Positions 12,856 through 52,961 of a stretch of 64,000 bases of DNA are shown piece by piece. This DNA is from Bacillales bacterium UBA5026 (lineage in GTDB: Bacteria > Bacillota_I > Bacilli_A > RF39 > UBA660): assembly GCA_002416285.1 (NCBI GenBank), contig DICM01000020.1, positions 26,597 to 90,596 of the forward strand. Direction: 5' to 3'. A program made the translations under genes and the position numbers. The notes under the pieces were generated by a model that worked only from the letters and a program-made list of their open reading frames with translations, did no database searches and had not been told where the DNA came from. Position 1 is the stretch's first letter. Each line of letters starts with the position of its first letter.

Positions 12856-15120
12856 TTAAATACGGAAGATTTGTACATAAACAGTTCCGCTGTAATAGTA
12901 ATTTTCTTGCTTACAAGAATTCATAGACTTATAACTATAATAATCATATAATCTATACAAACCAACTCTTAAACCAGGTAAAAATATGGCTTGTCGATTG
13001 AATTTCTTTAAATAATTATCATTACAAATACTAAGATTTATATCTCCTGTATTTGTTCTATTACATGATCCGAAACCTCTAAAGTCCTGAATATCATTTC
13101 CAGCTCCAAAGAGAAAAGCCGTATATCCCCATTTATCCCAAGAACTCCCTGTATCATCATAATCACCAAATCCATCATATCCATCATAAGTTGATGAATA
13201 TGACTGGGTAGTACTTGCGCTCAATACTAATACTTTTCCATTATAGATGGTTCCTGATACAAACTGTTCATATTGCCCACTACAAGCTGGTTTAGCACAT
13301 GTCTTATCATTACTCGCAGTATCTTTTTGCGTATAACAAGTACAACTTCCACTTTTTCCGTTCCCAGATACAAAAGTATATCGACTACTTTGTTTTAATG
13401 CTGTCCACGCTGCATCGCTATTTCTTAAAATACTGGATGTAACTTTTGCACAATCATACATTGCATTGCGGAATTGTTGATATTCAATATAGTTTTTAAA
13501 TAAAGCTGTGTTATTTACAATAGCTTGGAAAGCTGCTGCATCACAAGCTTTGCTTTTTGACCAGTCATAGTTGTCCGGATTATCACAACTTCCTGTATTA
13601 CAACTTTGGGATTGTGTATAACTTCCACAATAGGATCCATCATAATTTGATTTCTTATGAACCGTTCGATATTGTACTCCGCCTCCACATGTCTTACTAC
13701 ATGCTCCCCATGCATCCCACTGATAATCTACTGTTGAGCTACAACAAGTTTGAGTATTGCAACTTTGACTACCTGTTGTCGTCGAACAAACTTTAGAAGT
13801 TTTATTATCTTTTACGGTTTCACTTCTACTTTGGGTTCCTCCACCACATGCCTTGCTACAACTTCCCCAACTTCCATACGAGATAGTTGTATTTCCACTT
13901 CCACACTCATTATAAAGAACGTAATTAATAGAGCGATTTACTTTATTCCCAATCGGATCCATATAAGTAATATAGATTGTTTTGGTCTCCCCATTAATCG
14001 TTCCTCCAACATTCCATGCCTTATTGGTATTATAGATTTCCCATATACCATCTTTCTCATATCCAGTATTACTAATATACATCTGAATAATCGCACCTGA
14101 ATTATCCTTGACATCAGAAACAATAGTAATAGTAGGTACATTATAAGATATATTTGTTGATTTGACTATCAAAGTATTAATTACTGGTGGTTCTAAATCA
14201 ATTTGGCTAATCGTTAAAGTGGATGGACTTGTATCATTAAATCCATCACTCGTAATTGCTTCTATAGATCCATTACTTTCAAATAAAACTTCAAGCTTTG
14301 TTCCTTCTATCTTTATTTTTTGTCCAATTGGAATAACCTGTCCATTCATTTTAGCGACACCACTATATAATCTGATATAATTTTCTACATTGCTCGGATA
14401 GGTAATCACAACTGTTTTCGTTTTTGTCCAACCACTGGGGCTGACACTATAGGATGCGGTTGGTAATTCTTTAGTTACGGCATCAATCGTTTTTTCAGTG
14501 ACTTTATCGATACGATTGGTAACTCTTACATGAACTTCATATTTGCGACTGAATCTTAATGATTCAAACTTATAGGTATCCTCATTACTTTTTATCCAAT
14601 TTTCTTCATTCCCACAATTTTCAATACAATAGGAATATCCAGTAATTCCTGTATCATCATTAGCGGTTGCTTTGATTGTTGCACTTCTAGTAGTTGTATC
14701 AATAACCTCTAAAGATAGTGCCGCATATAAATCTTTTTGATTACTACAGTCACCCTTTGTCACTGTAAGTCCATTTTTAGATCCTGTTGCACAATAATGC
14801 CCATCGGTAAAACTTTTTAAAATATATTCTTCTTTCGTATTTTGAAAGACGAGTCCTTGGACTTTGTCCTTATTCTTAATATCTAAATTTTTAATATTGA
14901 AACCATCTTTAGATAGAGTCTCATTTTTACTTACGTAAAGATTTGCGGCATCAATTGTATTTTTTGCACTAGCAATAAAGGTATTCCTTTTCGCATTTTC
15001 AATTTGGTTTACTACCAATGGTGTTACAACTAAAGTAATAACTGCGATAATTAAAATTACAGCTAAAAGTTCTACTAAAGTAAAACCACGAATTTTATTT
15101 TCCTTACTTTTATTTTTCAT
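12856..15120 (-). CDS. giant type IV pilin-like protein with FN3/Ig-like modules, two thrombospondin type-1 repeats and a Cys-rich C-terminal domain
   Basis: Prepilin signal MKNKSKENKIRG|FTLVELLAVILIIAVI (Glu at +5). Pilin-like Cys loop HYCATGSKNGLTVTKGDC. TSR signatures SWGSCSKACGGGTQSRS and WDAWGACSKTCGGGVQYRT (residues about 405-512, nt 13585-13908). AGGTGG RBS. Confidence 0.8.
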   Translation of the reverse strand: MKNKSKENKIRGFTLVELLAVILIIAVITLVVTPLVVNQIENAKRNTFIASAKNTIDAANLYVSKNETLSKDGFNIKNLDIKNKDKVQGLVFQNTKEEYILKSFTDGHYCATGSKNGLTVTKGDCSNQKDLYAALSLEVIDTTTRSATIKATANDDTGITGYSYCIENCGNEENWIKSNEDTYKFESLRFSRKYEVHVRVTNRIDKVTEKTIDAVTKELPTASYSVSPSGWTKTKTVVITYPSNVENYIRLYSGVAKMNGQVIPIGQKIKIEGTKLEVLFESNGSIEAITSDGFNDTSPSTLTISQIDLEPPVINTLIVKSTNISYNVPTITIVSDVKDNSGAIIQMYISNTGYEKDGIWEIYNTNKAWNVGGTINGETKTIYITYMDPIGNKVNRSINYVLYNECGSGNTTISYGSWGSCSKACGGGTQSRSETVKDNKTSKVCSTTTGSQSCNTQTCCSSTVDYQWDAWGACSKTCGGGVQYRTVHKKSNYDGSYCGSYTQSQSCNTGSCDNPDNYDWSKSKACDAAAFQAIVNNTALFKNYIEYQQFRNAMYDCAKVTSSILRNSDAAWTALKQSSRYTFVSGNGKSGSCTCYTQKDTASNDKTCAKPACSGQYEQFVSGTIYNGKVLVLSASTTQSYSSTYDGYDGFGDYDDTGSSWDKWGYTAFLFGAGNDIQDFRGFGSCNRTNTGDINLSICNDNYLKKFNRQAIFLPGLRVGLYRLYDYYSYKSMNSCKQENYYYSGTVYVQIFRI

Positions 15121-15332: not shown

Positions 15333-17588
15333 TTAAATAATAAATATTTGCACATAAACAGTAGCATTATAATAGTGATTTTCAATCTTAGACCCAGACT
15401 TTCCGTTATCATAATCATAGTACCAATATAGTCCAACTCTTAGATTAGGTAAAAATAAGGATTGCCTGTTATATCGTTCTGCCCAAGTTCCACTACAAAC
15501 ATTTAGATCAAGATTTCCGTTAGTAGTACGATTACATGAACCCCATCCACGATAAGAATCGACTTTATAAGAAGATCCGAGTAAGAAATAAGATCGGTAA
15601 GTATAATCTACTGATTTTGTTTCGTTATCTGCTTTTCCAAATCCATCATCATCATACTTTGTACCTAAGTAGCGGTCTGTACTAGCACTCAACACTAAAA
15701 CTCTTCCACCATAAATAATTCCAGAAGAAAACTGATCATAAGCTCCAGCACAAGCTGGCTTTTGACAATTTTTATACGCACTACTAGAATTACTGTTGTA
15801 TTTACAAGTACAACTTGTAGCACTACCATTCCCTGATACTAACGAATAACGACTACTTTGCTTTAGCGCATTCCATGCTCCATCAGTATTCCTTAAAATA
15901 TTAGCTGTTACATTTGCACAATCATACATCGCATTTCGAAATTGTTGATGTTCGATATAATTTTTAAACAGAGTGGTATTATTAGCTATCGCTTGAAAAG
16001 CTGCTGCATCACAAGCTTTACTCTTTGACCAATCATAGTTGTCAGGATTATCACAGCTTCCTGTATTACAACTTTGTGATTGTGTATAGCTTCCACAATA
16101 GGATCCATCATAATTTGATTTCTTATGAACCGTTCGATATTGTACTCCGCCTCCACATATCTTACTACATGCTCCCCATGCATCCCACTGATAATCTACT
16201 GTTGAACTACAGCAAGTTTGGGTATTACAGCTTTGCGTACCTGTCGATGTAGAACAAACTTTAGAAGTTTTATTATCTTTCACAGTCTCACTTCTACTTT
16301 GTGTTCCTCCGCCGCAAGCTTTACTACAACTTCCCCAACTTCCGTAAGACGTGGTTGTATTTCCACTTCCACATTCGTTATAAAGAACATAATTAACAGA
16401 ACGATTTACTTTATTTCCAATCGGATCCATATAGGTAATATAAACCGTTTTTGTCTCTCCATTAATAGTTCCACCGACGTTCCACGCTTTATTAGTATTA
16501 TAAATCTCCCAAATACCATCTTTCTCATAACCAGTATTGCTAATATACATTTGTATTATCGCACCTGAATTATCTTTTACATCAGAGACAATGGTAGTAG
16601 TAGGAACATTATAAGATGCATTTGTTGATTTAACAGTTAAAGTATTAATAACCGGTGGCTCTAGATCAATTTGACTAATGGTCAAGGTTGATGGACTTGT
16701 GTCATTGAAACCATCACTAGTAATTGCTTCTATAGAACCATTCGTTTCAAATAAAACTTCAAGTGTTGTTCCCTCTATTCGTATCTTTTCTCCAATTGGA
16801 ATAACCTGTCCATTCATTTTCGCAACACCACTATATAATCTTATATAGTTTTCTACATTGCTCGGATAGGTAATGACAACTGTTTTTGTTTTTGTCCAAC
16901 CACTGGGGCTGACACTATAGGATGCAGTTGGTAACTCTTTTGTCACTGCATCAATCGTTTTTTCAGTGACCTTATCAATACGATTCGTTACTCTTACGTG
17001 AACTTCATATTTACGACTGAACTTTAAAGACTCAAATTTATAGATATCCTCATTACTTTTTATCCAATTAGCTTCATTCCCACAGTCTTCAATACAATAG
17101 GAATATCCGGTAATCCCGGTATCATCGCTAGCTGTTGCTTTTATTGTCGCACTTCTCGTAGTTGTATCAAGCACTTCTAAAGATAGTGCTGCATATAAAT
17201 CTGTTTGATCACTACAGTTTCCCTTTGTTACCAAAAGTCCATTCTTAGACCCTGTCGCACAATAATGTCCATCTGTAAAGCTTTTTAAAATATATTCTTC
17301 TTTCGTATTTTGAAATACAAGCCCTTGCACTTTATCTTTATTCTTAATATCTAAATTTTTAATATTGAAGCCATCTTCAGGTAATGACGCATTCTTACTT
17401 ACATAAAGATTTGCGGCATCAATAGTATTCTTCGCACTGGCAATAAATGTATTCTTTTTCGCATTTTCAATTTGGTTTAATACTAATGGTGTTACAACTA
17501 AAGCAATTACTGCAATAATTAAAATTACAGCTAAAAGCTCTACCAAAGTAAAACCTAAAATTCTCTTTCTCATAATTTTCTTTCTCAT
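15333..17588 (-). CDS. giant type IV pilin-like protein, paralog of 12856..15120 (two TSP1 repeats, divergent C-terminal domain)
   Basis: The ORF track begins at 17645, but that extension overlaps the promoter. ATG at 17588 gives MRKKIMRKRILG|FTLVELLAVILIIAVI, a 12-aa leader of the same length as the paralog, behind an AGGTGA RBS. TSRs at nt 16053-16376. Confidence 0.8.
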   Translation of the reverse strand: MRKKIMRKRILGFTLVELLAVILIIAVIALVVTPLVLNQIENAKKNTFIASAKNTIDAANLYVSKNASLPEDGFNIKNLDIKNKDKVQGLVFQNTKEEYILKSFTDGHYCATGSKNGLLVTKGNCSDQTDLYAALSLEVLDTTTRSATIKATASDDTGITGYSYCIEDCGNEANWIKSNEDIYKFESLKFSRKYEVHVRVTNRIDKVTEKTIDAVTKELPTASYSVSPSGWTKTKTVVITYPSNVENYIRLYSGVAKMNGQVIPIGEKIRIEGTTLEVLFETNGSIEAITSDGFNDTSPSTLTISQIDLEPPVINTLTVKSTNASYNVPTTTIVSDVKDNSGAIIQMYISNTGYEKDGIWEIYNTNKAWNVGGTINGETKTVYITYMDPIGNKVNRSVNYVLYNECGSGNTTTSYGSWGSCSKACGGGTQSRSETVKDNKTSKVCSTSTGTQSCNTQTCCSSTVDYQWDAWGACSKICGGGVQYRTVHKKSNYDGSYCGSYTQSQSCNTGSCDNPDNYDWSKSKACDAAAFQAIANNTTLFKNYIEHQQFRNAMYDCANVTANILRNTDGAWNALKQSSRYSLVSGNGSATSCTCKYNSNSSSAYKNCQKPACAGAYDQFSSGIIYGGRVLVLSASTDRYLGTKYDDDGFGKADNETKSVDYTYRSYFLLGSSYKVDSYRGWGSCNRTTNGNLDLNVCSGTWAERYNRQSLFLPNLRVGLYWYYDYDNGKSGSKIENHYYNATVYVQIFII

Positions 17589-17616
17589 ATCTTCACCTAT
17601 CTTACTATTACATTTT

Positions 17617-17645
17617 ATTTTACAGTAGTTACCATTTATAGTCAA
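17617..17645 (-). promoter_or_regulatory. sigma-A type promoter of upstream TSR-pilin gene
   Basis: Minus strand reads TTGACT (17640-17645)-17 nt-TAAAAT (17617-17622). It sits directly after the polA terminator. Confidence 0.7.
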
Positions 17646-25612: not shown

Positions 25613-28600
25613 TTAAAATAAAGATAATTGACTAGATTCATCCATTCCTTCAAAAATTCCCATCATCCGCATCTTTTCAATTAATGTAGTTGAAACTTTC
25701 GCTCTCTTTTGGAAATCTTCAATACTTAAGAATTCTTGTTTTGCACGTTCTGCTACAATATTCTTAGCAACAGTATCACCCAGTCCATCGATAGATGAGA
25801 ATGGTGGATAAATCGTTTTATCATCTTTTACAGCAAAGGTTGTTGCATTGCTATGATATAAATCAATATTAGCAAATTTAATACCTCTAGCTGTTGCTTC
25901 TAAGGCAACGTGTAGACATTCGGAAATTCCAGCATCTTTATTAGTTGCTTCATTTCCTTTGTTAGCAATTTCTATAATTTTATTTTTTATAGCACTATAT
26001 CCAGCAATCATGGCATCAACGTCAAAGTCGGTCGCCTTTGTTGAAAGCCAAGATGCATAATAGTAAACTGGCATATGAACTTTATACCAAGCAATACGGA
26101 AAGCACTGATAACATAGGCTGCTGCATGAGCTTTCGGGAACATGTATTTAATCTTCCTACAAGATTCAATAAACCATGGTTCAATCCCTGCTTCACGCAT
26201 TTCAGCATCCATTTCTTTCCATGCTTCTGGGTCTTTTGAAGCTCTTCCTTTACGCACAAATTCCATTATTTTAAAGGCTCTTTTTGGAGCGAGACCATGA
26301 TACATCAAGTAAACCATGATATCATCACGACAACCAATAACTTCCTTGAATGGTACCACTTTATTACGAATTAAATCTTGGGCATTTCCAAGCCAAACAT
26401 CAGTACCATGAGATAGTCCTGAAATTTTAATTAATTCGGCAAAAGAGGTTGGTTTGGTATCGGCGAGCATTTGTAGTGTGAACTTCGTACCAAATTCGGG
26501 AATTCCAAGTGTTCCTGTCTCACACATGATTTGTTCTTTCGTAACACCGAGCGGTTCAGGTGATAAGAATATTCCCATCGTTTCTTTATCATCTAATGGA
26601 ACTGTTGTAACATCCATTCCCGTTAAATCTTGAATCATACGAAGTTGCGTTGGATCAGAGTGTCCTAAAATATCCAATTTCAATACGTCTTGATCAATGG
26701 CATGATAATCGAAATGCGTTGTTCTCCATGCCGAATTCGGATCATCGGCTGGATATTGAAATGGTGTAAAATCAAATACATCCATATATCCAGGTATTAC
26801 AACTATTCCACCAGGATGTTGTCCTGTTGTTCTTTTCACACCTGTACATCCCATTGCCAAACGTTCTACTTCAGCAGTACGCATCACGATGTTATGTTCT
26901 TCACAATACCCTTTGACATAACCGAATGCTGTCTTGTCAGCAACGGTACCAATCGTTCCGGCACGATAGACATTATCGACACCAAATAATACTTTTGTAT
27001 ATTCATGTGCATCTGCTTGATTCAAATCGGAGAAGTTAAGATCAATATCTGGTACTTTATCCGCATCAAATCCAAGGAAAGTCGCGAATGGCATATCTTG
27101 TCCATCCTTTACCATTAAAGTGTTGCAATGTGGACAATTATAATCTGGTAAATCGAATCCAGATGAGTACTCTGCTCCAAGTACCTTTCCATCTAATTCA
27201 AAGATACTATGTTTACAATTAGGGCAACGATAATGTGCTGGAAGTGGATTTACTTCAGTAATACCCATCATCGTTGCAACAAATGATGATCCTACCGATC
27301 CACGACTTCCAACTAAATATCCATCATCGTTCGATTTTTTTACTAATTTTTGAGCAATTAAGTAAATAACGTCAAATCCACCTTTGATAATACCGGTTAA
27401 CTCCTGATTAATTCTGTCATCGATAATTTTAGGTAGAGGTTCTCCATACCATTCTTTTGCTTTTCCATAAACAAGTTCATTTACTGTCTCTATGGAATTT
27501 TCAATCTTCGGAGAAAATGGAATTCCATCAGTATCGATGATAACTTCTATTTCTTCAATTTGATCAGCGACTAAATTGGTATTTTTAACGACAATTTCAA
27601 AGGCTTTCTCAGAACCTAGAAAAGCAAAATCCTCTAACATTTCACGAGTTGTTCTAAAATGTTGTGAAGGAATGCTTGTAATTCCTGATCTTGAAAGTGG
27701 ATGTCTTCCTCCTCCAGGTACTTTTTGATTAACGATAATTTCACGGTAAATCTTATCTTCTCTTTTTGTTTGATGTACATCACCTGTAGCTACAATAAGC
27801 TTACCAGAATCCTCTGTAACAGATACAATTTTTTTGATATGTTCCTCTAATTCACTTTTGTTTCCAAAATCTCCCATCTGAATTAGATGATCGTAAACTT
27901 CTGGTGGTTGAACTTCAACATAATCATAAAAATTAATAATATTAGTTAATTCCTCATTTGATTTACTTCTCGCTTCGGTAAATACCTCTGATTCATAGCA
28001 CCCACTACCAACGAGTAGACCTTCTCTTAATCGATCAATTTCACTTCTTAAAATTCTTGGGGTCTTGTACAGATAGGTTGTATTAGCTAGACTGATAATT
28101 CGAAATAAGTTTTTAAGACCAACTTTATTTTTGGCAAGCAGGTTTACATGATAAGTACGACCATATTTGTGTATTTCATCCTTTGATACTAATTTATCTA
28201 AATCAATAATTGTTTCAAAATTACGATCATGTAATTTTTTTAACATTTTATGAAATACTAAAGCGGTTGCTTCCGCATCGTAATCACCTCGGTGATGAGA
28301 ATCTTCATCAAATGGAACATTGTATCGTTTTACCAATGCGGATAAACTATGACGTGCATAGTTGTTATCCATCGTTCTTGATAGTTCGAGTGTATCAATA
28401 ACGGTATTTTCAAATGTACCTAAATGATATTTTTGATAAGCCATCTCTACGAATGAGGTATCAAATTTTGCATTGTGAGCAACCATTGGCAAATTTCCAA
28501 CCCAAGCGATAAACTCTTTGAAAGCTGTTTCTTCATCTGGTTTACCCTCTAACATCTCATCTGTAATTGCTGTTAATTCAGTGATTTTGGATGGTAATTT

Positions 28601-30025
28601 TCTACCAGGATTAATTAATTGATCGTACCGATCAATAACTTCACCATTAAATAATTTAACCGCTCCAATTTCAATCGTCGAATCTCCACCACCAGCATTA
28701 AATCCTGTTGTTTCAAGGTCAAATACGACATAAGCAGTGTCTAACAATTTTTTATCGTTCGGGCGAACGACAATTCGGATTGTATCATCAACCATTATAA
28801 GTTCTGTTCCGTAAAGGACTTTAAAACGATCTTCTGGATTTTCAATCTTTTTATTGATACTATTTACTGCTGAAAAGGCAATTGGAAAAGCCTGACAACC
28901 ATTATGATCGGTAATGGCAATTGCTTTATGACCCCATTTGCGGGCTAAATCAACAATTTCAATTGTATGTTTTCCAAGATCAAGTTTTGAAACACCATCC
29001 ATTTGGCTCATCATCGTATGTACATGAAGTTCCACCCTTTTTTCAGGTGCATCATCGATAACTTCCTCTACTTGTTTCTCAAATATATTAATATCACGAA
29101 TTTGGAATGTAAGTTCATTTGAGTATTTATCATCCTTTACCATTCCACGCATTTTAAACCATTTACCTTTTTTTAATTGCTTAATGATTTTAGGATAATT
29201 TTCTTCGTCATCAATAAATATCTTTCCATAGATACTATCGGTGTAATCAGTAATTTTTAAAGTTACAATCTTTAAAGTGGTTTTTGTTTCGCGAACATCT
29301 GGATCGGCAAATAAACATGCTTCAATGGTAAGGTTATTAGTCGGTCCAATCACAGTGTCTAGTCTTGCTAGAGTATCTTCGATTTTTCTTCCAATAATAA
29401 CTTCTGGATTATCCGGTTCTTCTATAATTGGTGGACGTTTATAGTCTTTTGGTACAAATTTCTTTTTTTGTTCAGGAACTGGTTCATTTGGAACAAAGAT
29501 TTCTTTGGGAACGTTGACGACTAATTCTTGTTCGATTTCTTTTTGAAATTCTTCTGATTTCGCTTCATCAACTTTAGTTTTAATTTTAAAGGTATAACCG
29601 ATGCGCAAAAACTCTTTTTGTAAATCGTTTAAAATACTATTAAATTTCATTTCTTCAGCTTTATTATTTAGAACAATCGTTAAGATTGAATCGGATAAAT
29701 GAATCGGAAACTCTTTAAACATAGAGAAAAGTGGAGATTCTTTCTCATATTTTTCTAGAAAGAAACGGTAATATTCAGCTAAATAATTCTCAGCTTCATG
29801 ATCAACTTGAAAACAAGCTTGCACTTCAATTCCAGCATAAGATTTTCGCAATGTTTTAGAGAATTGTTGTTCTAAAGCTGGAGATAAAGTGTTTTCAAGA
29901 TGAATAACAAATCGATATTTTGTTTTATCTTGATTTCCAATAATGCGTACTAAAGAGGCATTTTGAAAATATTCTAGATCTTTCCATCCCATATGTTTTA
30001 AAAGTTGTTCTAGTTTTTGTTCCAT
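25613..30025 (-). CDS. polC: DNA polymerase III alpha subunit, Gram-positive PolC type
   Basis: PHP domain (VELHVHTMMSQMDG), inserted DEDDh exonuclease (VVFDLETTG...HNAKFDTSF), zinc module (CPNCKH...CPHC) and polymerase core. The track starts at GTG 30037. I prefer ATG 30025 (MEQKLEQLL) behind GGAGTGGGTGA. Confidence 0.95.
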   Translation of the reverse strand: MEQKLEQLLKHMGWKDLEYFQNASLVRIIGNQDKTKYRFVIHLENTLSPALEQQFSKTLRKSYAGIEVQACFQVDHEAENYLAEYYRFFLEKYEKESPLFSMFKEFPIHLSDSILTIVLNNKAEEMKFNSILNDLQKEFLRIGYTFKIKTKVDEAKSEEFQKEIEQELVVNVPKEIFVPNEPVPEQKKKFVPKDYKRPPIIEEPDNPEVIIGRKIEDTLARLDTVIGPTNNLTIEACLFADPDVRETKTTLKIVTLKITDYTDSIYGKIFIDDEENYPKIIKQLKKGKWFKMRGMVKDDKYSNELTFQIRDINIFEKQVEEVIDDAPEKRVELHVHTMMSQMDGVSKLDLGKHTIEIVDLARKWGHKAIAITDHNGCQAFPIAFSAVNSINKKIENPEDRFKVLYGTELIMVDDTIRIVVRPNDKKLLDTAYVVFDLETTGFNAGGGDSTIEIGAVKLFNGEVIDRYDQLINPGRKLPSKITELTAITDEMLEGKPDEETAFKEFIAWVGNLPMVAHNAKFDTSFVEMAYQKYHLGTFENTVIDTLELSRTMDNNYARHSLSALVKRYNVPFDEDSHHRGDYDAEATALVFHKMLKKLHDRNFETIIDLDKLVSKDEIHKYGRTYHVNLLAKNKVGLKNLFRIISLANTTYLYKTPRILRSEIDRLREGLLVGSGCYESEVFTEARSKSNEELTNIINFYDYVEVQPPEVYDHLIQMGDFGNKSELEEHIKKIVSVTEDSGKLIVATGDVHQTKREDKIYREIIVNQKVPGGGRHPLSRSGITSIPSQHFRTTREMLEDFAFLGSEKAFEIVVKNTNLVADQIEEIEVIIDTDGIPFSPKIENSIETVNELVYGKAKEWYGEPLPKIIDDRINQELTGIIKGGFDVIYLIAQKLVKKSNDDGYLVGSRGSVGSSFVATMMGITEVNPLPAHYRCPNCKHSIFELDGKVLGAEYSSGFDLPDYNCPHCNTLMVKDGQDMPFATFLGFDADKVPDIDLNFSDLNQADAHEYTKVLFGVDNVYRAGTIGTVADKTAFGYVKGYCEEHNIVMRTAEVERLAMGCTGVKRTTGQHPGGIVVIPGYMDVFDFTPFQYPADDPNSAWRTTHFDYHAIDQDVLKLDILGHSDPTQLRMIQDLTGMDVTTVPLDDKETMGIFLSPEPLGVTKEQIMCETGTLGIPEFGTKFTLQMLADTKPTSFAELIKISGLSHGTDVWLGNAQDLIRNKVVPFKEVIGCRDDIMVYLMYHGLAPKRAFKIMEFVRKGRASKDPEAWKEMDAEMREAGIEPWFIESCRKIKYMFPKAHAAAYVISAFRIAWYKVHMPVYYYASWLSTKATDFDVDAMIAGYSAIKNKIIEIANKGNEATNKDAGISECLHVALEATARGIKFANIDLYHSNATTFAVKDDKTIYPPFSSIDGLGDTVAKNIVAERAKQEFLSIEDFQKRAKVSTTLIEKMRMMGIFEGMDESSQLSLF

Positions 30026-30085
30026 AGTATCACCCACTCCATTGTATCAAAAAAAAGAGTTTCTTGAAACCCTTTTAGAATTGTT

Positions 30086-30110
30086 AAAGAAAAAAAGATC
30101 TTAAGATCTT
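30086..30110 (-). terminator. intrinsic terminator after pilin gene 1
   Basis: AAGATC-TTAA-GATCTT palindrome (30095-30110), directly after the TAA stop and followed by TTTTTTT on the minus strand. Confidence 0.75.
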
Positions 30111-30566
30111 TTATTCACCGATTGTTGAAAAATTTTCTACAACTTTAGCAGTTTTACCATCATATTCAACTTTATAACCGTTGATTGTTAATTGAGCTAA
30201 CTTAATTTCACCACCGTCAACAACTACTTTTCCACCATCGACTGGATTTTTACCTTTGAAATCAACTGTAATTGTAATGGCTTTATCATCAGTAGTTTTT
30301 TCTGTATCTGCAGTAAGTGTTTTTCCTTCTAATGATGTTGTATAAGTATCATCTACAATTTTAGCTTCACTAGCATTAGTAAGCATATTTTTTAAAGTTG
30401 ATTTTTCAACAGAATCAATATACCCGTATGCACTACTTTCAGCAGCACCTTTCTTAGCACTATCAATAACTCCTAAAATCATTGGTGTAGCAATTAACGC
30501 AATGATTGCAAGAATAACGATAACAGCTAGTAATTCAATTAATGTAAAACCTTTTGTATTTTTCAT
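30111..30566 (-). CDS. type IV pilin-like protein (short, major-pilin-like), copy 1
   Basis: MKNTKG|FTLIELLAVIVILAIIALIATPMILGVIDSAKKGAAESSAYGY. This is a prepilin cleavage/methylation motif with Glu at +5. GGAGG RBS at 30576-30580. Confidence 0.9.
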   Translation of the reverse strand: MKNTKGFTLIELLAVIVILAIIALIATPMILGVIDSAKKGAAESSAYGYIDSVEKSTLKNMLTNASEAKIVDDTYTTSLEGKTLTADTEKTTDDKAITITVDFKGKNPVDGGKVVVDGGEIKLAQLTINGYKVEYDGKTAKVVENFSTIGE

Positions 30567-30597
30567 GTATAACTTCCTCCTATTTTTCTACAGTATT

Positions 30598-30626
30598 AAT
30601 ATACCATAGGTTCTTCGCCCAGTCAA
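30598..30626 (-). promoter_or_regulatory. sigma-A type promoter of pilin gene 1
   Basis: Minus strand reads TTGACT (30621-30626)-17 nt-TATATT (30598-30603). The TTCGACAAAAT motif lies just upstream (30631-30641). Confidence 0.7.
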
Positions 30627-30776
30627 TATAATTTTGTCGAATTTTAGAATATACTACATTAAAATTGAATTAAATTTCATATTTTTTTTAGAAGGAAATA
30701 AGCTGTTAGCTCGTAGATAATATTTTTAATTCTTAACAGGTAAAATATCTATCAAAAAAAAAGACCTTTCGATCTT

Positions 30777-31232
30777 TTATCCTTCAATTGCAGAAAAGTT
30801 TTCTACAACTTTAGCAGTTTTACCATCATATTCAACTTTGTAACCGTTGATTGTTAATTGTGCTAATTTAATTTCTCCACCATCAACAACTACTTTTCCA
30901 CCATTCTCTGGATTTTTACCTTTGAAATCAACTTTGATTTTAACTGGTGCAGCTGGTGTACCAACCGCTTTTGTACCTGTTAGTGTTTTTCCAGCATCAC
31001 TGATTGTGTAAGTATCATCTACGATTTTAGCTTCTGAAGCATTAGCTAGCATATTTTTTAAAGTTGATTTTTCTACTGCATCAACATACCCATATGCACT
31101 ACTTTCAGAAGCACCTTTCTTAGCACTATCGATTACTCCTAAAATCATTGGTGTTGCAATTAACGCAATGATTGCAAGAATAACGATAACAGCAAGTAAT
31201 TCAATTAATGTAAAACCTTTTGTATTTTTCAT
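30777..31232 (-). CDS. type IV pilin-like protein, copy 2
   Basis: Same length (151 aa) as copy 1. It is near-identical over residues 1-75 and from about 101 to 151, but differs over residues about 76-100. Confidence 0.9.
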   Translation of the reverse strand: MKNTKGFTLIELLAVIVILAIIALIATPMILGVIDSAKKGASESSAYGYVDAVEKSTLKNMLANASEAKIVDDTYTISDAGKTLTGTKAVGTPAAPVKIKVDFKGKNPENGGKVVVDGGEIKLAQLTINGYKVEYDGKTAKVVENFSAIEG

Positions 31233-31262
31233 GTATAACTTCCTCCTATCTTATACAATAAT

Positions 31263-31291
31263 AATATATCACAGCTAAATTACACAGTCAA
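31263..31291 (-). promoter_or_regulatory. sigma-A type promoter of pilin gene 2
   Basis: Minus strand reads TTGACT (31286-31291)-17 nt-TATATT (31263-31268), the same hexamers as copy 1. Confidence 0.7.
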
Positions 31292-31296
31292 TATGA

Positions 31297-31336
31297 TTTT
31301 GTCGAAATAATGTAAATTTTGTCGAAATAATGTAAA
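31297..31336. repeat. perfect 20-bp tandem duplication (ttttgtcgaaataatgtaaa x2)
   Basis: 31297-31316 is identical to 31317-31336. It sits immediately upstream of the -35 of pilin gene 2. Each unit contains the TTCGACAAAA motif (minus strand) also found upstream of pilin gene 1. Confidence 0.9.
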
Positions 31337-31364
31337 TTATGGAATATTTAATTTTTTATTAAAA

Positions 31365-31400
31365 TAAAAGAAAAATAGAAGTTATTTCTTCATAACTTCT
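31365..31400 (-). terminator. intrinsic terminator after pilin gene 3
   Basis: 9-bp stem AGAAGTTAT/ATAACTTCT (31377-31385/31392-31400) overlaps the TAG stop. TTTTTCTTTTATTTT follows on the minus strand. Confidence 0.8.
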
Positions 31401-31839
31401 ATCTTGCGGCTGTTGCTTTTTTACCATCATATGTAACAACATAACCATTAATCGTCAATGTAGCTGCAGTAATCTCTCCACCAGCAATTGTAACGGAGTC
31501 ATCTACACCTTTTGGACTATCTCCTTTGAATGATACATTGATTGTTACTGGGGTAGTTCCATCTGCTTCCATCTTTGTGTTAGCAGTAAGAACTTTACCA
31601 TCACTACTAATTGAATAAGTATCATCAACTAATGTATTACCATTATTATCAATCATATCTTTTAAACTTGATTTTTCAACTGAATCGACATACCCGTAGG
31701 CACTACTTTCAGCAGCACCTCTTTTAGCACTATCAATAACTCCTAAAATCATTGGTGTTGCAATTAAGGCAATGATCGCTAAAATAACGATTACAGCTAG
31801 TAATTCAATTAAGGTAAAACCTTTTCTATTTGCTTTCAT
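31399..31839 (-). CDS. type IV pilin-like protein, copy 3 (more divergent)
   Basis: MKANRKG|FTLIELLAVIVILAIIALIATPMILGVIDSAKRGAAESSAYGY. The globular part is about 50% similar to copies 1 and 2. AGGAGGTAG RBS. Confidence 0.9.
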   Translation of the reverse strand: MKANRKGFTLIELLAVIVILAIIALIATPMILGVIDSAKRGAAESSAYGYVDSVEKSSLKDMIDNNGNTLVDDTYSISSDGKVLTANTKMEADGTTPVTINVSFKGDSPKGVDDSVTIAGGEITAATLTINGYVVTYDGKKATAAR

Positions 31840-32043
31840 TTTTTCTACCTCCTATTCTTTTCTTTATAGTATTTCATTTCACATACTTTCCCACAGTGAT
31901 ATTACAGTGAGATATATTAGAAAAAGCGAATTTATTTTTACTACAATTTAAACCTCCTTTATTTCTATTATGAAGCAAATTCTAGAATTTATGCAGTTTT
32001 TCCCATGGAAATAAAGTAAAAAGAACCAAATTGGTTCTCTTTT

Positions 32044-34557
32044 CTAAATACTTTTTTCTAAGAACATTAATTCTTGCTGTTCTTTTTCTAATGTTGCCTT
32101 TTCTTGGTCAACTAAATGTTTTGGAGCTTTATTAATATAATTCTCATTATTTAATAAATTTGATCTTCTTTCAATACTTGACTTTAGTCTAGTAATTTCT
32201 TTTAATTTGAATTCTTTTTCTTTTTGTAAATTTTCACTATCATCATAGTAAAATTCTATTTTATATTGTTCACTTTCTAAACCATGTCCATTTTCTTGTT
32301 TCGATATTTTTTGTTCTTCATTTAGTCTTAATATTTTTTCGATTAATGGATCTCCTTCAAAATAGAAATTCGCATTTGCTGGAATTTTATTCTCTAATTT
32401 ATAAGCTCTTACCTTAGTGATAAAGTCGATCATTTGATTTACCTCATCACTTGTATCTTCCCACTCGTTATGGCAAGTAGGATAAGCATCTAACATAATC
32501 GTTTCCTTATGAATTGGTAATATTTGATAAATTTCTTCTGTTACATATGGCATAAATGGGTGTAAAAGTTTTAGAATATTTGTTAAAACTTCAAGTAATA
32601 CCGATTTTGTTGTCATCGTTGGTTCTATTTTAGAAAATTCAATATACCAATTACAGAAGTCCTCCCAAATAAAATTATAAAGTTCAGTTCCAACAACATT
32701 AAATTCATATAAATCTAAGTGATTACGGGTTTTCTTGATTACTTCATTTAATCTATTTAAAATCCACTTATCTGTTTTTTGTAAATTTTCCAAAGTATAA
32801 TCCGTTTCACTGAATTCTCCAATTGTCATTAATACAAAACGACTCGCATTCCATAGTTTATTAATAAAATTCCAAGTTGATTTTACTTTTTCCTCATCAT
32901 AACGTAAATCTGTTCCAAGAGCAGTTGACGTAGCTAAGAAAAATCTTAAAGCATCACAACCATACTCTTCGATTACATCCATAGGATCGACACCATTTCC
33001 AAGTGATTTACTCATTTTACGTCCTTCTTTATCACGTATTAAACCATGAATTAAACAGTCCTTGAATGGACGTTTTCCCGTAAATTCAAGACCTTGAAAT
33101 GTCATACGATTTACCCAAAAAGGAATAATATCATACCCAGTTACTAAAACATTGTTAGGATAATAACGTTTAAAGTCTGCTGTTTCCTCTGGCCAACCTA
33201 ATGTTGAAAATGGCCATAATGCACTTGAGAACCAAGTATCAAGTACATCTGGATCTTGGATCCATCCTTCCCCAGTTGGTGCTTCCATTCCAACATATAC
33301 TTCTTCATTCCGATACCAAGCAGGTATTTGATGTCCCCACCATAATTGCCTAGAAATACACCAGTCATAGGTGATTTCCATCCAATGATTCATTGTTTTC
33401 TCATAACGTTCTGGAACAAAATTAACTTTATTATCTGTTTTTTGATTTTCTAAAACACGGTCAGCAAGAGGTCGCATTTTAACAAACCATTGTTTTGATA
33501 GATAAGGTTCAACAATCGCATCTGTTCTTTCACTATGCGGTTCAGAGTGAGTCATTTTTTCAGTACGAATTAATAAATCAGCTTTCTCTAAATCCTCTAA
33601 TAATTTCTTTCTACATTCATAACGATCTAAACCAGCATAAACCCCAGTATTTTCTTTCATTGTTGCATCTGGATTCATAATTACTAATCGTTCTAGATTA
33701 TGTCTATTTCCAACTTCAAAGTCATTTGGATCATGAGCCGGTGTAATTTTAACAACACCTGTTCCAAATTCAGGATCCGCATGTTCATCTCCAACAATTG
33801 GAATCTCTCTACCAACTACTGGTAGAATTACGGTTTTTCCAATTAAATCTTTGTATCGTTCATCATTGGGATTTACCGCTACAGCCATATCACCAAATAA
33901 TGTTTCTGGTCGGGTTGTAGCAACATCTAAATAACGATCTTCACCGACAATATAATATTTTAAGTGATAAAAAGCTCCTTCTGTCTCTTTATAGATAACT
34001 TCCTCATTGGATAAAGCAGTCATAGCTTCTGGATCCCAGTTGATAATACGTTCACCACGGTAAATTAATCCTTTTTTATAGAGTTCATTAAATACATATC
34101 GAACCGTATAACTCAGTTTCTCATCCATTGTAAAACGTTCTTTATTATAGTCTAAGCTAAGTCCTAATTTTCCCCATTGCTCATAGATATTATTCGCATA
34201 CTCTGCTTTCCATGCCCAAGCATGTTTTAACCATTCTTCCCGGCCTAAACTTCTAGGATTGATTCCTTGTTCTCTTAATTTTTTATCTACTTTCGCTTGC
34301 GTTGCAATACCAGCATGATCCATTCCTGGCAGCCATAAAGCATCATAACCATCCATTCGTTTATAACGAATTAAAATATCTTGCATAGTCGTATCCCAAG
34401 CATGTCCTAAATGTAATTTTCCAGTAACATTTGGTGGAGGAATAACAATACAGTATGGTTTCTTGCTTAAATCTCCAGAAGAAAAATAACCATTTTCCTT
34501 CCATTTGTTATACTTCCCTTTTTCGATTTCTTTATGATTATATTTCGTATCTAACAT
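32044..34557 (-). CDS. valS: valyl-tRNA synthetase
   Basis: Class I HIGH motif ([13 protein letters not shown]), KMSKS motif ([10 protein letters not shown]), a CP1 editing domain and a C-terminal coiled coil. Confidence 0.97.
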
Positions 34558-41244: not shown

Positions 41245-42798
41245 TTAGATGGTATCATATATACCTTTTCTTTTCTGTCGAAAACGAGCGATAAAACCAA
41301 TTAATTTATCATAGAAATAATGAAATTCTCCAGTATCATGGAAAATACCAAAATAGATTATATTTACAATTAAGAATGTCAAAATTCCTTTTACCATAAG
41401 CCATAAAAATCCAGATGGCAATAAATTTACAATGGAGAAGCAAATCCCGTTTACCACTAAAAATAGAAGTAAAAATATAACATATTTTATAAAATAACGA
41501 GTACTACTTCTCTTAAAACCATATTCATAAACAATATGTGGATCCATCCATACAACTGTTGTCAGACGACTTACGATGGTTCCGATTAAAACTCCAGTAA
41601 TTCCTAATGGTTTTACCAATAAGATAGATACAACTAAGTTAATAATAATCATTGCAACTGGACGGTATTTTCCCTTCCAGAATAATCCATAGGCATTACG
41701 AAAAGAATTAGTGACACTTCCCATTCCAACCAAATAAAAATTGATACTGAGTAGCCACACAACCATATTACTTAATAAGTAGTCTTTTCCAATCCAAATT
41801 TCAATAAAAGGATTGAATAAAACACAAAGTAAGATGGAACAAAGGGCATAGATCCAAAAATTTAAAAATGTTAGGCATTCATAAACTGCTTTACTTCTTC
41901 GCTCATTAGTTGTTACTACTAGATTACCAATGCTAGAAGTAATCGCATTAAATAACTGTATTACGATATTATTAACAGAGTTTACAATCATAATGTAATT
42001 GGAATAAACACCAACCGCAACGATACCAATAAACTTTGAAATAACTAAGTTATCAGTACCGTTGGTAATAACAGATCCGATTTTATAAATGAACAGTGCA
42101 GAAATATTCTTTTTAATATCTTCTAAATCTTCTGAATCCATTTTTTCTTTTGTTTTATTTTTTAAATATGGATACAGCCTCATTGCTTTATGCGAAATAT
42201 AGACATTTTGGATAATTACTAAAATAACGGATGATACAAGGTAGAAAATAAAATTTTGAAAAGCAATTAAAATAATACCTTGTACAATATTTAAAAGAAC
42301 CGAAAAGAAGAATGATATTCGTGTTGTAATATAGCCTTTCTGATCGGATTCAATTAAAAATCTTTTATATACAAAGAAATAACTGGATGCTGAATGAATC
42401 ACAAACAAGGCATATAATAGTTCTATATTAGGAACTACTGTTCCACCTTTGATAAAAAATCCCAAAAATGGAATTAACGAAAGACCGAAAACTAGAACAA
42501 TCGTACCAATCGTATTATATATTTTCGCGTAGAAATTCATCAGTATATTAATCTTCTTATGATTTTTCTCAGCCAGTGGTTTATATAGACTATAAGGAAT
42601 TGCAATTCCAATTCCTAAATCTGCTAAAGAAAGCATCGTGATAATATTTGAAAATAAGCCATTCACTCCTAAATAGACACTTCCAAGTTGTTGAATAAAT
42701 ATGGTTTTTACAACAAAATTCATTACGACTAAAATAATCTGTGTAATGATGGAGGTCATAGAATTTAAAATTGATTTTTTCGTTCTAGAATCAGCCAT
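41245..42798 (-). CDS. Wzx-like oligosaccharide/teichoic-acid flippase (MOP superfamily)
   Basis: About 14 TM. The N-terminus after MADSRTKKSILNSMTSIITQII resembles the PST family. The track start of 42858 adds a non-membrane leader, so I prefer ATG 42798. The start is uncertain. Confidence 0.7.
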   Translation of the reverse strand: MADSRTKKSILNSMTSIITQIILVVMNFVVKTIFIQQLGSVYLGVNGLFSNIITMLSLADLGIGIAIPYSLYKPLAEKNHKKINILMNFYAKIYNTIGTIVLVFGLSLIPFLGFFIKGGTVVPNIELLYALFVIHSASSYFFVYKRFLIESDQKGYITTRISFFFSVLLNIVQGIILIAFQNFIFYLVSSVILVIIQNVYISHKAMRLYPYLKNKTKEKMDSEDLEDIKKNISALFIYKIGSVITNGTDNLVISKFIGIVAVGVYSNYIMIVNSVNNIVIQLFNAITSSIGNLVVTTNERRSKAVYECLTFLNFWIYALCSILLCVLFNPFIEIWIGKDYLLSNMVVWLLSINFYLVGMGSVTNSFRNAYGLFWKGKYRPVAMIIINLVVSILLVKPLGITGVLIGTIVSRLTTVVWMDPHIVYEYGFKRSSTRYFIKYVIFLLLFLVVNGICFSIVNLLPSGFLWLMVKGILTFLIVNIIYFGIFHDTGEFHYFYDKLIGFIARFRQKRKGIYDTI

Positions 42799-42899
42799 AT
42801 CGTCCCAACTTTCTATTATCATTATAGCTGATTTTAAGGATAAAGTAAAATAGAACATAAGTTTTTTACTACTTTCATATATTCTAATGAGGTGTTGTA

Positions 42900-51286: not shown

Positions 51287-51342
51287 AACATCCCTACCTT
51301 ACTAATAAGTATAACATGTATATTTATAATTGTGTAGCATAA

Positions 51343-51376: not shown

Positions 51377-51402
51377 AGCAAACTAGAATATGATAGAGTT
51401 TT

Positions 51403-52935: not shown

Positions 52936-52961
52936 AATCTTCCCCCTCTTTTATGGCTTGT

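What the first reader, a model, noticed from the sequence alone, without database searches (positions are those of the whole stretch)
30111..31839. Three tandem, individually transcribed short pilin genes between polC and valS
Three ORFs of 146-151 aa all start with M-K-x-x-(R)-K-G|FTLIELLAVIVILAIIALIATPMILGVIDSAK, a prepilin methylation motif. Copies 1 and 2 each have a near-identical TTGACT-17-TATATT promoter, a strong GGAGG RBS and a downstream hairpin. Copy 3 has the RBS and a terminator, but I could not identify a promoter for it. This looks like three alternative major-pilin genes rather than a comG/pil operon. No PilB/PilC/PilD/PilM-type genes occur anywhere in the 64 kb. The combination with the TSR-pilins 13 kb away suggests a dispersed pilus system whose structural genes are inserted between core replication and translation genes.
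Basis: partly seen in the sequence, partly recalled or inferred. Interest (0 to 1): 0.65.

Follow-up and report, generated by a model that had tools for sequence, protein, structure and literature searches.

The report
Tandem type IV pilin gene array
Three side-by-side, separately switched genes for pilus building blocks sit next to the valS gene in an uncultured gut bacterium; this array is conserved across its lineage, and the assembly machinery lies elsewhere in the genome, so it is a new example of a known kind of system, not a new kind.

Summary
Three minus-strand ORFs (30111-30566, 30777-31232, 31399-31839) encode 146-151 aa proteins with a class III (prepilin) signal, Glu5, a predicted ~55-residue N-terminal helix and a beta-sheet head. 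Copies 1 and 2 have a TTGACT-17-TGnTATATT promoter, a GGAGG RBS and a terminator hairpin. The same promoter precedes homologous pilin genes in five other genomes. Copy 3 lacks it.

The window comes from MAG GCA_032085635.1, an uncultured gut 'Bacilli/Tenericutes' lineage. In at least 10 related genomes, 1-4 such pilin genes follow valS, so this is an old, copy-number-variable locus and not an insertion. Distal copies are mosaic and fast-evolving; the valS-proximal copy is conserved.

No machinery lies on the 92-kb contig. Another contig of the same MAG carries a Tad-type operon (flp-tadE-tadE/G-tadZ-cpaF-tadB-tadC). A close relative has both loci on one 585-kb scaffold. Other lineage members also carry PilB/PilC/PilD genes with no pilin gene beside them. 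Which machine polymerises these pilins is unresolved, and no prepilin peptidase was located in this MAG.

Verdict: real, probably major pilins of a dispersed type IV filament system, and a new member of a known kind. The closest analogue is Streptococcus sanguinis PilE1/PilE2. Interest is moderate.

The parts
30111..30566 (-). Pilin copy 1 (polC-proximal), 151 aa. Leader MKNTKG, then mature FTLIE...
   Evidence: ORF. PF07963 and TIGR02532 above cut-off. AF2 model pLDDT 84.8, helix 9-63 plus 7 strands. Exact protein present in GCA_032085635.1.
30598..30626 (-). Promoter of copy 1: TTGACT-17-TATATT with TG extended -10. The -10 element ends 31 nt before the ATG.
   Evidence: Same architecture upstream of homologous genes in five other genomes.
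30576..30580 (-). RBS GGAGG of copy 1
30049..30112 (-). Two tandem hairpin + U-run terminators after copy 1, directly abutting the polC start
   Evidence: -13.8 kcal/mol, z -2.1.
30777..31232 (-). Pilin copy 2 (middle), 151 aa
   Evidence: 83% identical to copy 1, with differences concentrated in residues about 76-112.
31263..31291 (-). Promoter of copy 2: TTGACT-17-TATATT with TG
31242..31246 (-). RBS GGAGG of copy 2
31297..31338 (-). Two direct copies of a 21-bp element (ATTTACATTATTTCGACAAAA on the minus strand) upstream of the copy 2 -35 hexamer. A single TTCGACAAAAT motif sits at the same place upstream of copy 1 (about 30630-30645) and of the L002 homologues.
   Evidence: Read from the sequence. 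Function inferred only: UP element or regulator site.
30750..30778 (-). Terminator hairpin (GAAA loop) + U9 after copy 2
   Evidence: -12.7 kcal/mol, z -2.5.
31399..31839 (-). Pilin copy 3 (valS-proximal), 146 aa. The most conserved copy: 93% identical to its orthologue in the relative L002.
   Evidence: pN 0.015-0.075 against pS 0.33-0.45 for W3-R3.
31848..31852 (-). RBS GGAGG of copy 3
31361..31403 (-). Terminator hairpin (12 bp) + U-rich tail after copy 3
   Evidence: -13.2 kcal/mol, z -3.3.
31853..32017 (-). Leader between the valS terminator and copy 3, about 165 nt, strongly conserved. No sigma-70-like promoter. Contains AAGGAGG-N6-TTG-TAG (a start-stop).
   Evidence: Conserved between the window and L002 well beyond synonymous-site identity. 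No Rfam hit. No stable fold, z -0.6. Function unexplained.
32018..32042 (-). valS intrinsic terminator (context: it separates valS from copy 3)
12856..15120 (-). Large modular pilin, 754 aa, prepilin motif + 2 TSP1 repeats. Belongs to the same dispersed pilin repertoire.
15333..17645 (-). Second large modular pilin with TSP1 repeats. Likely start at Met20, coordinate 17588. 82% identical to the first.

Best explanation
The three genes encode paralogous type IV (class III signal) pilins. They are most likely the major, shaft-forming subunits of a type IV filament in an uncultured, low-GC gut Bacilli ('Tenericutes'-labelled) bacterium. Copies 1 and 2 are each made from their own strong promoter as a monocistronic mRNA. 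Copy 3 is made from an unidentified promoter, or by read-through from valS across a conserved leader. The prepilins insert in the membrane. A prepilin peptidase cuts after Gly6 (Gly7 in copy 3), exposing F-T-L-I-E. An ATPase and platform machine encoded elsewhere in the genome then polymerises them through their identical N-terminal helices. The variable alpha-beta-loop, beta-sheet and C-tail face outwards. Because the helices are identical, the paralogues can probably co-assemble or substitute for each other, giving a mosaic or switchable surface. The array evolves by duplication and gene conversion downstream of valS. My preferred machine is a minimal PilB/PilC/PilD set like the one seen in other lineage members, where it has no pilin gene of its own. 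The Tad machine, which is demonstrably present in this MAG, is the alternative. Shown here: gene structure, prepilin motif, conserved promoters, conserved synteny, mosaicism, and the Tad operon in the same MAG. Inferred: processing, polymerisation, major-subunit role and choice of machine.
For: Pilin identity: PF07963 and TIGR02532 above cut-off, and Glu at +5. AF2 gives a 55-residue helix plus a beta head, pLDDT 84-85. PDB sequence hits to PilE1, MshA, PilA and geopilin cover the alpha-1 region. High, independent expression: the promoter ATTGACT-17-TGnTATATT and GGAGG are conserved at a fixed distance in six genomes, and each gene has a terminator. Conserved locus: HD-valS-pilin with 1-4 copies in L002, L003/4/6, L013, L014, L021, L038, L049, L050 and L090/91. 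Selection pattern: identical alpha-1. For W1-W2 the mid-region pN/pS is 0.63, against 0.13-0.15 in the N- and C-terminal regions. The copy-3 orthologues are under purifying selection. Strain alleles are chimeric: P0122 is copy 1 with the copy-2 tail, and P0004 is a different allele. Machinery: a CpaF/TadA operon lies on contig DAMCXE010000007.1 of the same MAG. Both loci lie on one 585-kb scaffold in the 79%-identical relative. PilC (4e-48 to 3jc8), bifunctional-type PilD (CxxC...CxxC plus GGGDIKL) and PilB occur in lineage loci L117, L159 and L160 with no adjacent pilin gene. PilB-type ATPases are widespread in 'Bacilli bacterium' MAGs. Analogue: the S. sanguinis PilE1/PilE2 heteropolymer, with identical alpha-1 and differences in the alpha-beta loop and C-tail (PMC10628169).
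Against: No prepilin peptidase and no PilB-type ATPase were shown in this MAG. The fingerprint search for PilB found no hit on known contigs of this species or its close relative, although that list was cut off at about 67% identity. The only machine shown here has its own Flp pilin. The head domain has no significant structural neighbour in the PDB, pilins included. There are no expression data. Copy 3 has no recognisable promoter. The contigs of a MAG are linked by binning, not by assembly.
Confidence: 0.72

Rival explanations
1. The GFTLIE pilins are substrates of the Tad (type IVc) machine. In this lineage a CpaF/TadB/TadC machine would polymerise or display T4a-like pilins with globular heads, alongside or instead of Flp.
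For: Tad is the only type IV filament machine shown in the same MAG. In L072, N_methyl pilin genes lie between tadA and tadB. In L059, a 334-aa N_methyl pilin occupies the flp position 72 nt upstream of tadE, and no flp is present. In L089, two small family members lie 4.3 kb upstream of a Tad operon that lacks flp. N_methyl genes directly follow the tadC-mur ligase pair in L092-94, L109, L116, L120, L122 and L132, and follow tadC in L168. Rough expectation for a direct abutment by chance is about 0.05 in 80 pilin-anchored loci; 2 were observed (my estimate).
Against: No characterised Tad system assembles headed GFxxxE pilins. The Tad operon here has its own Flp (G|QALVEY) and TadE-like subunits. 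No N_methyl ORF lay inside the Tad operon in any of the 80 TadA-anchored metagenome loci. These genomes are dense in N_methyl genes (5 in 64 kb here), so mere proximity is weak evidence. Many linked loci belong to a few species groups.
Confidence: 0.22
2. They are pseudopilins of a competence (ComG-like) or T2SS-like piston and not subunits of a long surface pilus.
For: There are weak N-terminal matches to ComGC and GspG models. Related Erysipelotrichales carry comG operons (PMC12786226). The PilB of the lineage is short (425 aa) and is named GspE/PulE.
Against: Scores are far below the equivalog cut-offs: ComGC 24-26 against 75 bits, GspG 27-28 against 88.85. The matches are confined to alpha-1. 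At 146-151 aa with a beta head they differ from the roughly 100-aa ComGC. They are not in an operon with comGA/GB or minor pilins. Tandem diversifying paralogues with strong own promoters are typical of exposed major pilins.
Confidence: 0.1
3. They are not polymerised. They would be small surface or membrane proteins that use the prepilin signal only as an export and anchor device.
For: The lineage encodes many large N_methyl proteins carrying adhesin-like domains (TSP1, LRR_5, DUF285, ALK_LTK_GRD). RFN20 and ML615J-28 relatives are reported to lack sortases (PMC10868615). The class III signal could therefore be a general display route.
Against: The perfectly conserved alpha-1 with Glu5 in all family members is what filament packing demands. 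The small size and the absence of any functional domain fit a structural subunit.
Confidence: 0.06
4. One expressed gene plus silent cassettes for antigenic variation, as in Neisseria pilE/pilS.
For: Mosaic alleles and signs of gene conversion between copies. Copy 3 lacks a canonical promoter.
Against: All three are full-length ORFs with leader, RBS and terminator. Copies 1 and 2 both have the conserved promoter. The promoterless copy 3 is the one under the strongest purifying selection, the opposite of what is expected for a silent donor cassette.
Confidence: 0.04

Closest known systems
Streptococcus sanguinis PilE1/PilE2 (two major pilins of a heteropolymeric type IV pilus in a monoderm; PMC10628169, PMC4832360, PMC6497953)
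   Same: Adjacent paralogous pilin genes of about 140-150 aa in a Bacillota member. The alpha-1 N-terminus is identical and differences are concentrated in the alpha-beta region and a C-terminal tail. That is the copy 1 against copy 2 pattern here (FSTIGE against FSAIEG tails, variable residues 76-112).
   Different: PilE1 and PilE2 lie inside the pil operon with PilB/C/D/M/N/O/T and the minor pilins. Here the genes are monocistronic, three in number (1-4 across the lineage), far from any machinery and linked to valS. Sequence similarity is confined to alpha-1 (residues 7-55), and Foldseek finds no head-domain match.
Orphan pilin genes outside biosynthetic operons in Gram-positive genomes (PilFind 'TBG-' pilins; Imam et al. 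2011, PMC3244431)
   Same: Prepilin-motif genes located away from pilB/pilC/tad/com operons, with several type IV filament operon types per genome.
   Different: That survey listed such genes without a conserved locus. Here a specific family occupies a conserved valS-downstream site with a conserved private promoter. The lineage was not sampled in that study, whose Mollicutes had none.
Neisseria pilE/pilS antigenic variation system
   Same: Several related pilin sequences, a variable exposed region, and mosaic alleles consistent with gene conversion.
   Different: pilS copies are promoterless and 5'-truncated. Here all copies are complete and at least two are expressed units. No G4 or recombination signal was looked for or seen.
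Tad/Flp (type IVc) pilus systems of monoderms (for example Bifidobacterium, Bulleidia; PMC12786226)
   Same: The same MAG has flp-tadE-tadE/G-tadZ-cpaF-tadB-tadC. Its CpaF scores 2e-104 to Caulobacter CpaF.
   Different: The three pilins are not Flp-type: there is no Tyr6, they carry a globular head, and they are twice as long. No tadV is present in or near the operon. A functional link to the Tad machine is only suggested by gene neighbourhood in some relatives.
Modular type IV pilins (S. sanguinis PilB/PilC; PMC8179133, PMC9934059)
   Same: A head-only profile of these small pilins finds 250-600 aa N_methyl proteins that have the same module at residues about 70-130 followed by extra domains. 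The window's TSP1 pilins fit this concept.
   Different: The three genes of the finding are the unadorned module. TSP1, ALK_LTK_GRD, DUF285 and LRR_5 grafts have not, to my knowledge, been described on pilins.

Membership tests
Type IV pilin (type IV filament subunit) | Class III signal peptide: short basic leader ending in Gly, followed by a hydrophobic stretch of about 20 residues | tested here: met
   PF07963 at 35.7-37 bits (cut-off 21.2) and TIGR02532 at 32.6-35.4 bits (cut-off 16.3) for all three.
Type IV pilin (type IV filament subunit) | Glu at position +5 of the mature protein | tested here: met
   G|F-T-L-I-E in all three copies and invariant in 36 family members.
Type IV pilin (type IV filament subunit) | Extended alpha-1 helix of about 50 residues packed against a C-terminal beta-sheet head | tested here: inconclusive
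   AF2 predicts helix 9-63 plus 7 strands, pLDDT 84-85. Foldseek finds no solved pilin or any other structure at E < 0.4.
Type IV pilin (type IV filament subunit) | Prepilin peptidase (Peptidase_A24) encoded in the same genome | not testable with these tools
   None found in the roughly 110 kb of the MAG that could be read. PilD-type peptidases exist in lineage members L117, L159 and L160.
Type IV pilin (type IV filament subunit) | Assembly ATPase and polytopic platform protein in the same genome | tested here: met
   CpaF/TadA (P0227), two T2SSF proteins and TadZ lie on contig DAMCXE010000007.1 of GCA_032085635.1. Whether this is the cognate machine is not shown.
Type IV pilin (type IV filament subunit) | Polymerises into a filament | not testable with these tools
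   Needs experiment.
ComGC competence major pilin (NF040999) | Equivalog score of 75 bits or more, length about 100 aa, encoded in a comGA-GG operon | tested here: not met
   24-26 bits over residues 5-54 only. Length is 146-151 aa. No comG genes lie nearby.
T2SS major pseudopilin GspG (TIGR01710) | Equivalog score of 88.85 bits or more, within a gsp operon | tested here: not met
   27-28 bits, N-terminus only.
Flp/Tad pilin | G|XXXXEY motif, about 50-80 aa, no globular head, encoded in a tad locus | tested here: not met
   The mature N-terminus is FTLIEL, with Leu at +6. A head domain is present, and the genes are not in the tad locus. A true Flp (G|QALVEY, 65 aa) exists separately at L098 8268-8465.
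Neisseria-type silent pilin cassettes (pilS) | Promoterless, 5'-truncated copies lacking the leader and alpha-1 | tested here: not met
   All three are complete ORFs with leader, RBS and terminator.
PilE1/PilE2-like co-polymerising major pilin paralogues | Paralogues with identical alpha-1N that differ on the surface; both incorporated in one filament | tested here: inconclusive
   The sequence pattern is met. Co-assembly cannot be tested. There is no head-domain homology to PilE1.

The most novel reading that the evidence does not exclude
In this genome-reduced and probably sortase-poor gut Bacilli lineage, the prepilin (class III) pathway may have become the main route for building and decorating the cell surface. 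A conserved valS-linked array of diversifying small pilins would form the shaft. Dozens of dispersed modular pilins (TSP1, LRR, DUF285, glycine-rich domains) would be displayed on it. Assembly would be carried out, at least in part, by a Tad/CpaF (type IVc) machine that accepts T4a-like headed pilins. That machine-substrate pairing has not been described.
Probability: 0.2. Interest if true: 0.7.

Novelty: new member of a known kind. Interest (0 to 1): 0.4.

Why it matters
The uncultured gut Bacilli labelled RF39/RFN20/'Tenericutes' are abundant in human and animal guts, yet the lineage papers I checked do not mention pili. This locus shows that they keep a conserved, strongly promoted and rapidly diversifying pilin array, together with many modular pilins. 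That points to a filament-based way of interacting with host, mucus, phage or other microbes. It also offers a natural system for asking how several major pilins share one machine, and whether a Tad machine or a minimal PilBCD machine serves orphan pilins. As a single finding it extends known type IV pilus biology and does not overturn it.

Tried and rejected
1. Foldseek of the full-length and the N-terminally truncated AF2 models against the PDB gave no hit better than E = 0.4. The top hits were sliding clamps and are meaningless. No structural family can be assigned to the head.
2. Rfam and folding of the conserved valS-copy 3 leader found no family and no stable structure.
It did not return the window's own species (best hit 46-51%), so it gave lineage context but not the genome.
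4. Motif and phmmer searches for PilB/PilC/PilD/PilM found nothing in the Bacilli-MAG loci among L001-L107. The only hits were the classical pil operons of L073 and L081 and weak PilB matches to the Tad ATPases.
5. A contig-length 'fingerprint' search worked for TadA (then). For PilB it failed: no listed hit lay on a known contig of this species or its relative, and the list ended at 67% identity. The result is inconclusive.
6. Extending beyond the window ends found only housekeeping genes.
7. A mobile-element or horizontal-transfer origin is rejected. GC is about 30%, like the genome as a whole. There is no integrase, and synteny is conserved.
8. The head-only profile gave weak repeated matches to Listeria-Bacteroides repeat (Flg_new) giants. 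The pilins themselves do not hit Flg_new in Pfam. I treat this as compositional or remote similarity and not as a domain assignment.
9. The extra 192-aa ORF in L002 is unrelated to the 192-aa ORF at window 9196-9774.
Full report
**1. What is in the sequence**

Three ORFs lie on the minus strand at 30111-30566 (151 aa), 30777-31232 (151 aa) and 31399-31839 (146 aa). They sit between polC (25613-30037) and valS (32044-34557).
- All three begin MK(A)N(T/R)KG|FTLIELLAVIVILAIIALIATPMILGVIDSAK.
- All three pass the curated thresholds of PF07963 (N_methyl) and TIGR02532.
- Every other NCBIfam hit (GspG, ComGC, PilA and others) covers only the N-terminal helix and falls far below its cut-off.
- Copies 1 and 2 are 83% identical; copy 3 is 63-66% identical to them. 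Residues 1-56 are nearly invariant.
- AlphaFold2 with a 36-sequence family alignment gives a confident model (pLDDT 84.8): one long helix (residues 9-63) followed by seven beta strands. That is the general pilin shape.
- Neither that model nor an N-terminally truncated one finds any significant neighbour in the PDB.
- By sequence, PDB matches (S. sanguinis PilE1, MshA, PilA, geopilin) are restricted to alpha-1.

**2. Transcription signals**

- The scan finds TTGACT-17-TATATT with a TG extension upstream of copies 1 and 2, and nothing comparable upstream of copy 3.
- Promoter-like hits in the region as a whole are not enriched over shuffles. The real support is comparative.
- The same ATTGACT-17-TGnTATATT element ends 28-33 nt before the ATG of homologous pilin genes in L002, L003, L087, L089 and L090. 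GGAGG lies 12-14 nt before the ATG in all of them.
- Each gene is followed by an AT-rich hairpin plus U-run. Copy 1 has two in tandem, ending 12 nt from the polC start region.
- Units 1 and 2 share a TTCGACAAAAT motif just upstream of the -35 hexamer. Unit 2 has it within a 21-bp direct repeat.
- The 165-nt leader of copy 3 has no sigma-70-type promoter. It is nevertheless much better conserved between the window and L002 than synonymous sites are.
- That leader contains a Shine-Dalgarno sequence followed by TTG-TAG. It matches no Rfam family and has no stable fold. This is unexplained.
- In arrays of three or more copies, the valS-proximal gene lacks the canonical promoter (W3, R3, L090a). 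The single gene in L003 has it.

**3. Whose genome, and how general**

- The exact proteins are on contig DAMCXE010000004.1 (92 kb) of MAG GCA_032085635.1.
- Full-length homologues (45-85% identity) are numerous in gut metagenomes.
- In species-representative genomes they occur in MAGs labelled uncultured Bacilli, Tenericutes or Mycoplasmatota, from human, rabbit, deer, sheep and chicken guts.
- The ClpC-SpoIID-HD-valS-pilin neighbourhood is conserved. Three pilins occur in a relative with 85% ValS identity (L002). One occurs in L003/4/6, L013, L014, L021 and L038. Two occur in L049 and L050. Four occur in L090/91.
- Other family members form tandem pairs or triplets elsewhere (L011, L054, L087, L089).
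- GC content is the genomic 30% and no mobility genes are present.
- The array is therefore an old, copy-number-variable locus and not an insertion.

**4. Evolution of the copies**

- The orthologous valS-proximal copies (W3/R3) are 93% identical, with pN 0.015-0.075 against pS 0.33-0.45. That indicates purifying selection.
- The distal copies are far more divergent between the two genomes (58-78%). They show high pN/pS in residues 58-112: 0.63 for W1-W2 and 0.72 for W2-R2.
- Patterns are mosaic. W1 shares its middle with R1 but its C-terminus with W2.
- Strain alleles confirm exchange. P0122 is copy 1 carrying the copy-2 tail. P0004, on the same short contig, is a different mosaic at the copy-2 position.
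- This is the behaviour of an exposed, diversifying filament surface with a constant assembly interface.

**5. Where the machinery is**

- Pfam scans of all ORFs of 100 aa or more in the window found no T2SSE, T2SSF, A24 or PilM/N/O. The flanks beyond the window have none either.
- In the 80 genome loci anchored on pilins, two show an N_methyl pilin gene embedded in or abutting a Tad-like operon: L059 and L072. A further family member (L089) has two small pilins 4.3 kb upstream of the same operon.
- I searched with the L089 ATPase and used contig length as a fingerprint. This led to P0225 on the 585-kb scaffold that also carries the valS-pilin-polC locus of the close relative.
- It also led to P0227 on contig DAMCXE010000007.1 of GCA_032085635.1, the window's own MAG.
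- That operon reads flp (65 aa, G|QALVEY), tadE, a TadE/G-like gene, a TadZ-like ParA ATPase, CpaF/TadA, two T2SSF proteins (one with an Ig-like insert), then a Mur ligase. CpaF/TadA scores 2e-104 to Caulobacter CpaF.
- An assembly ATPase and platform therefore exist in this genome, but they are of the Tad class and come with their own Flp pilin.

**6. A second candidate machine**

- Eighty TadA-anchored metagenome loci show the same operon.
- Three of them (L117, L159, L160) have, right next to it, a PilC (4e-48 to M. xanthus PilC) and a bifunctional-type PilD. The PilD has CxxC...CxxC, the SD motif and GGGDIKL. L159 also has a 425-434 aa PilB/GspE-type ATPase.
- No N_methyl pilin gene accompanies these, so their substrates must be encoded elsewhere.
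- PilB-type ATPases of this kind are common in 'Bacilli bacterium' MAGs.
- I could not show one in this MAG. The hit list stopped at 67% identity and no fingerprint matched.

**7. Weighing the two machines**

- Parsimony pairs Flp, TadE and TadF with the Tad machine, and the GFTLIE pilins with PilB/C/D.
- Gene neighbourhood in several relatives pairs N_methyl pilins with Tad. They lie within the operon in L072 and at the flp position in L059. They lie directly after tadC or the Mur ligase in L092-94, L109, L116, L120, L122, L132 and L168.
- These genomes are rich in N_methyl genes and many of these loci come from a few species, so I treat the neighbourhood evidence as suggestive only.
- I put about 0.5 on a PilBCD-type machine and about 0.2-0.25 on Tad. 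The remainder goes to non-filament or Com/T2SS-like roles.

**8. Relation to other pilins of the genome**

- A profile of the head domain alone recovers small pilins. It also recovers 250-600 aa N_methyl proteins that carry this module at residues about 70-130, followed by other domains (ALK_LTK_GRD, DUF6273).
- The window's two TSP1 pilins (82% identical to each other, divergent in the last ~170 aa) show a large repertoire of modular pilins. So do the LRR_5, DUF285 and other N_methyl proteins near the Tad operons.
- The three small genes are the plain module. With their strong promoters, they are the best candidates for the major subunit.

**9. Comparison with what is known**

- The closest characterised case is S. 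sanguinis PilE1/PilE2. These are two paralogous major pilins with identical alpha-1. They differ in an alpha-beta loop and a C-terminal tail, and they are stochastically co-polymerised (PMC10628169).
- The differences here: three monocistronic genes, a location away from any machinery, a conserved valS linkage, and no detectable head homology.
- Orphan pilin genes and flp-less tad operons in Gram-positives were noted by Imam et al. 2011 (PMC3244431).
- Related Erysipelotrichales with both tad and comG loci are described in PMC12786226.
- The papers on RF39, RFN20 and ML615J-28 that I checked do not mention pili.

**10. Verdict**

The corrections are that the locus is ancestral and not inserted, that the machine present is Tad-type, and that 'alternative' use is unproven. 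This is a new member of a known kind, namely type IV major-pilin paralogues. It has some attractive features: a conserved private promoter, a valS-linked variable array and an unassigned head fold. It also leaves an open and testable question about which machine serves it. Interest 0.4.

Noticed in passing
window 12856-15120 and 15333-17645 (minus strand): Two tandem prepilin-motif proteins of 754 and 770 aa, each with two thrombospondin type 1 (TSP1) repeats. They are 82% identical, with divergence concentrated in the last ~170 residues. They look like modular adhesin-type pilins, and TSP1 is mostly known from animal proteins (my background knowledge, not tested here).
   Followed up: partly
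window 31853-32017 (minus strand): The leader between the valS terminator and pilin copy 3 is conserved with L002 well beyond synonymous-site identity. It has no sigma-70-like promoter, Rfam match or stable fold. It contains AAGGAGG-N6-TTG-TAG, a start-stop mini-ORF.
   Followed up: partly
window 31297-31338 and about 30630-30645: A TTCGACAAAAT motif lies immediately upstream of the -35 hexamer of the pilin promoters. It is duplicated as a 21-bp direct repeat before copy 2 and is also present before the L002 homologues. It may be a regulator site or a UP element.
   Followed up: no
window 30038-30112: polC starts only 73 nt after the pilin-1 stop, directly behind two hairpin + U-run terminators. 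A TGATACAAT (extended -10-like) overlaps the second U-tract. How this essential gene is transcribed here is unclear.
   Followed up: no
window 48617-57863 (minus strand): A duplicated two-gene module: a hybrid histidine kinase with two receiver domains (889 and 899 aa), each followed by an acyltransferase (510 and 512 aa).
   Followed up: no
L098 7833-15669 (contig DAMCXE010000007.1 of the same MAG); also L092-L101, L106, L107: The Tad-type operon flp-tadE-tadE/G-tadZ-cpaF-tadB(Ig-like insert)-tadC is always followed by a Mur-ligase gene. In L092-L101 it is preceded by a divergent DUF192 gene, and in L106 and L107 by a divergent 101-110 aa ORF with no Pfam hit. No tadV is nearby.
   Followed up: partly
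L117 4682-7748; L159 6864-10676; L160 12067-14486: PilC, a bifunctional-type PilD and (in L159) a short PilB are encoded next to the Tad operon in some lineage members, with no pilin gene beside them.
   Followed up: partly
L004 1323-8767: valS is split into 302-aa and 558-aa ORFs by an insert of about 5 kb. The insert carries a second class I aaRS-like gene (803 aa), a nitroreductase-YcaO fusion (706 aa) and a 35-aa ORF, which looks like a RiPP-type cluster.
   Followed up: no
P0253, P0257, P0259 and other hits: The C-terminal half of the pilin head gives weak, repeated profile matches to Listeria-Bacteroides repeat (Flg_new) surface proteins of 900-2500 aa. The pilins themselves do not hit Flg_new in Pfam.
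   Followed up: partly
L002 10532-11110: The close relative has an extra 192-aa ORF with no Pfam match between the pilin array and polC. It is absent from the window and unrelated to the 192-aa ORF at window 9196-9774.
   Followed up: partly
window 3593-5920, 1101-2096, 41245-42858, 60020-62717: Several sizeable ORFs (775, 331, 537 and four of 186-195 aa) have no Pfam family at E <= 1e-4.
   Followed up: no
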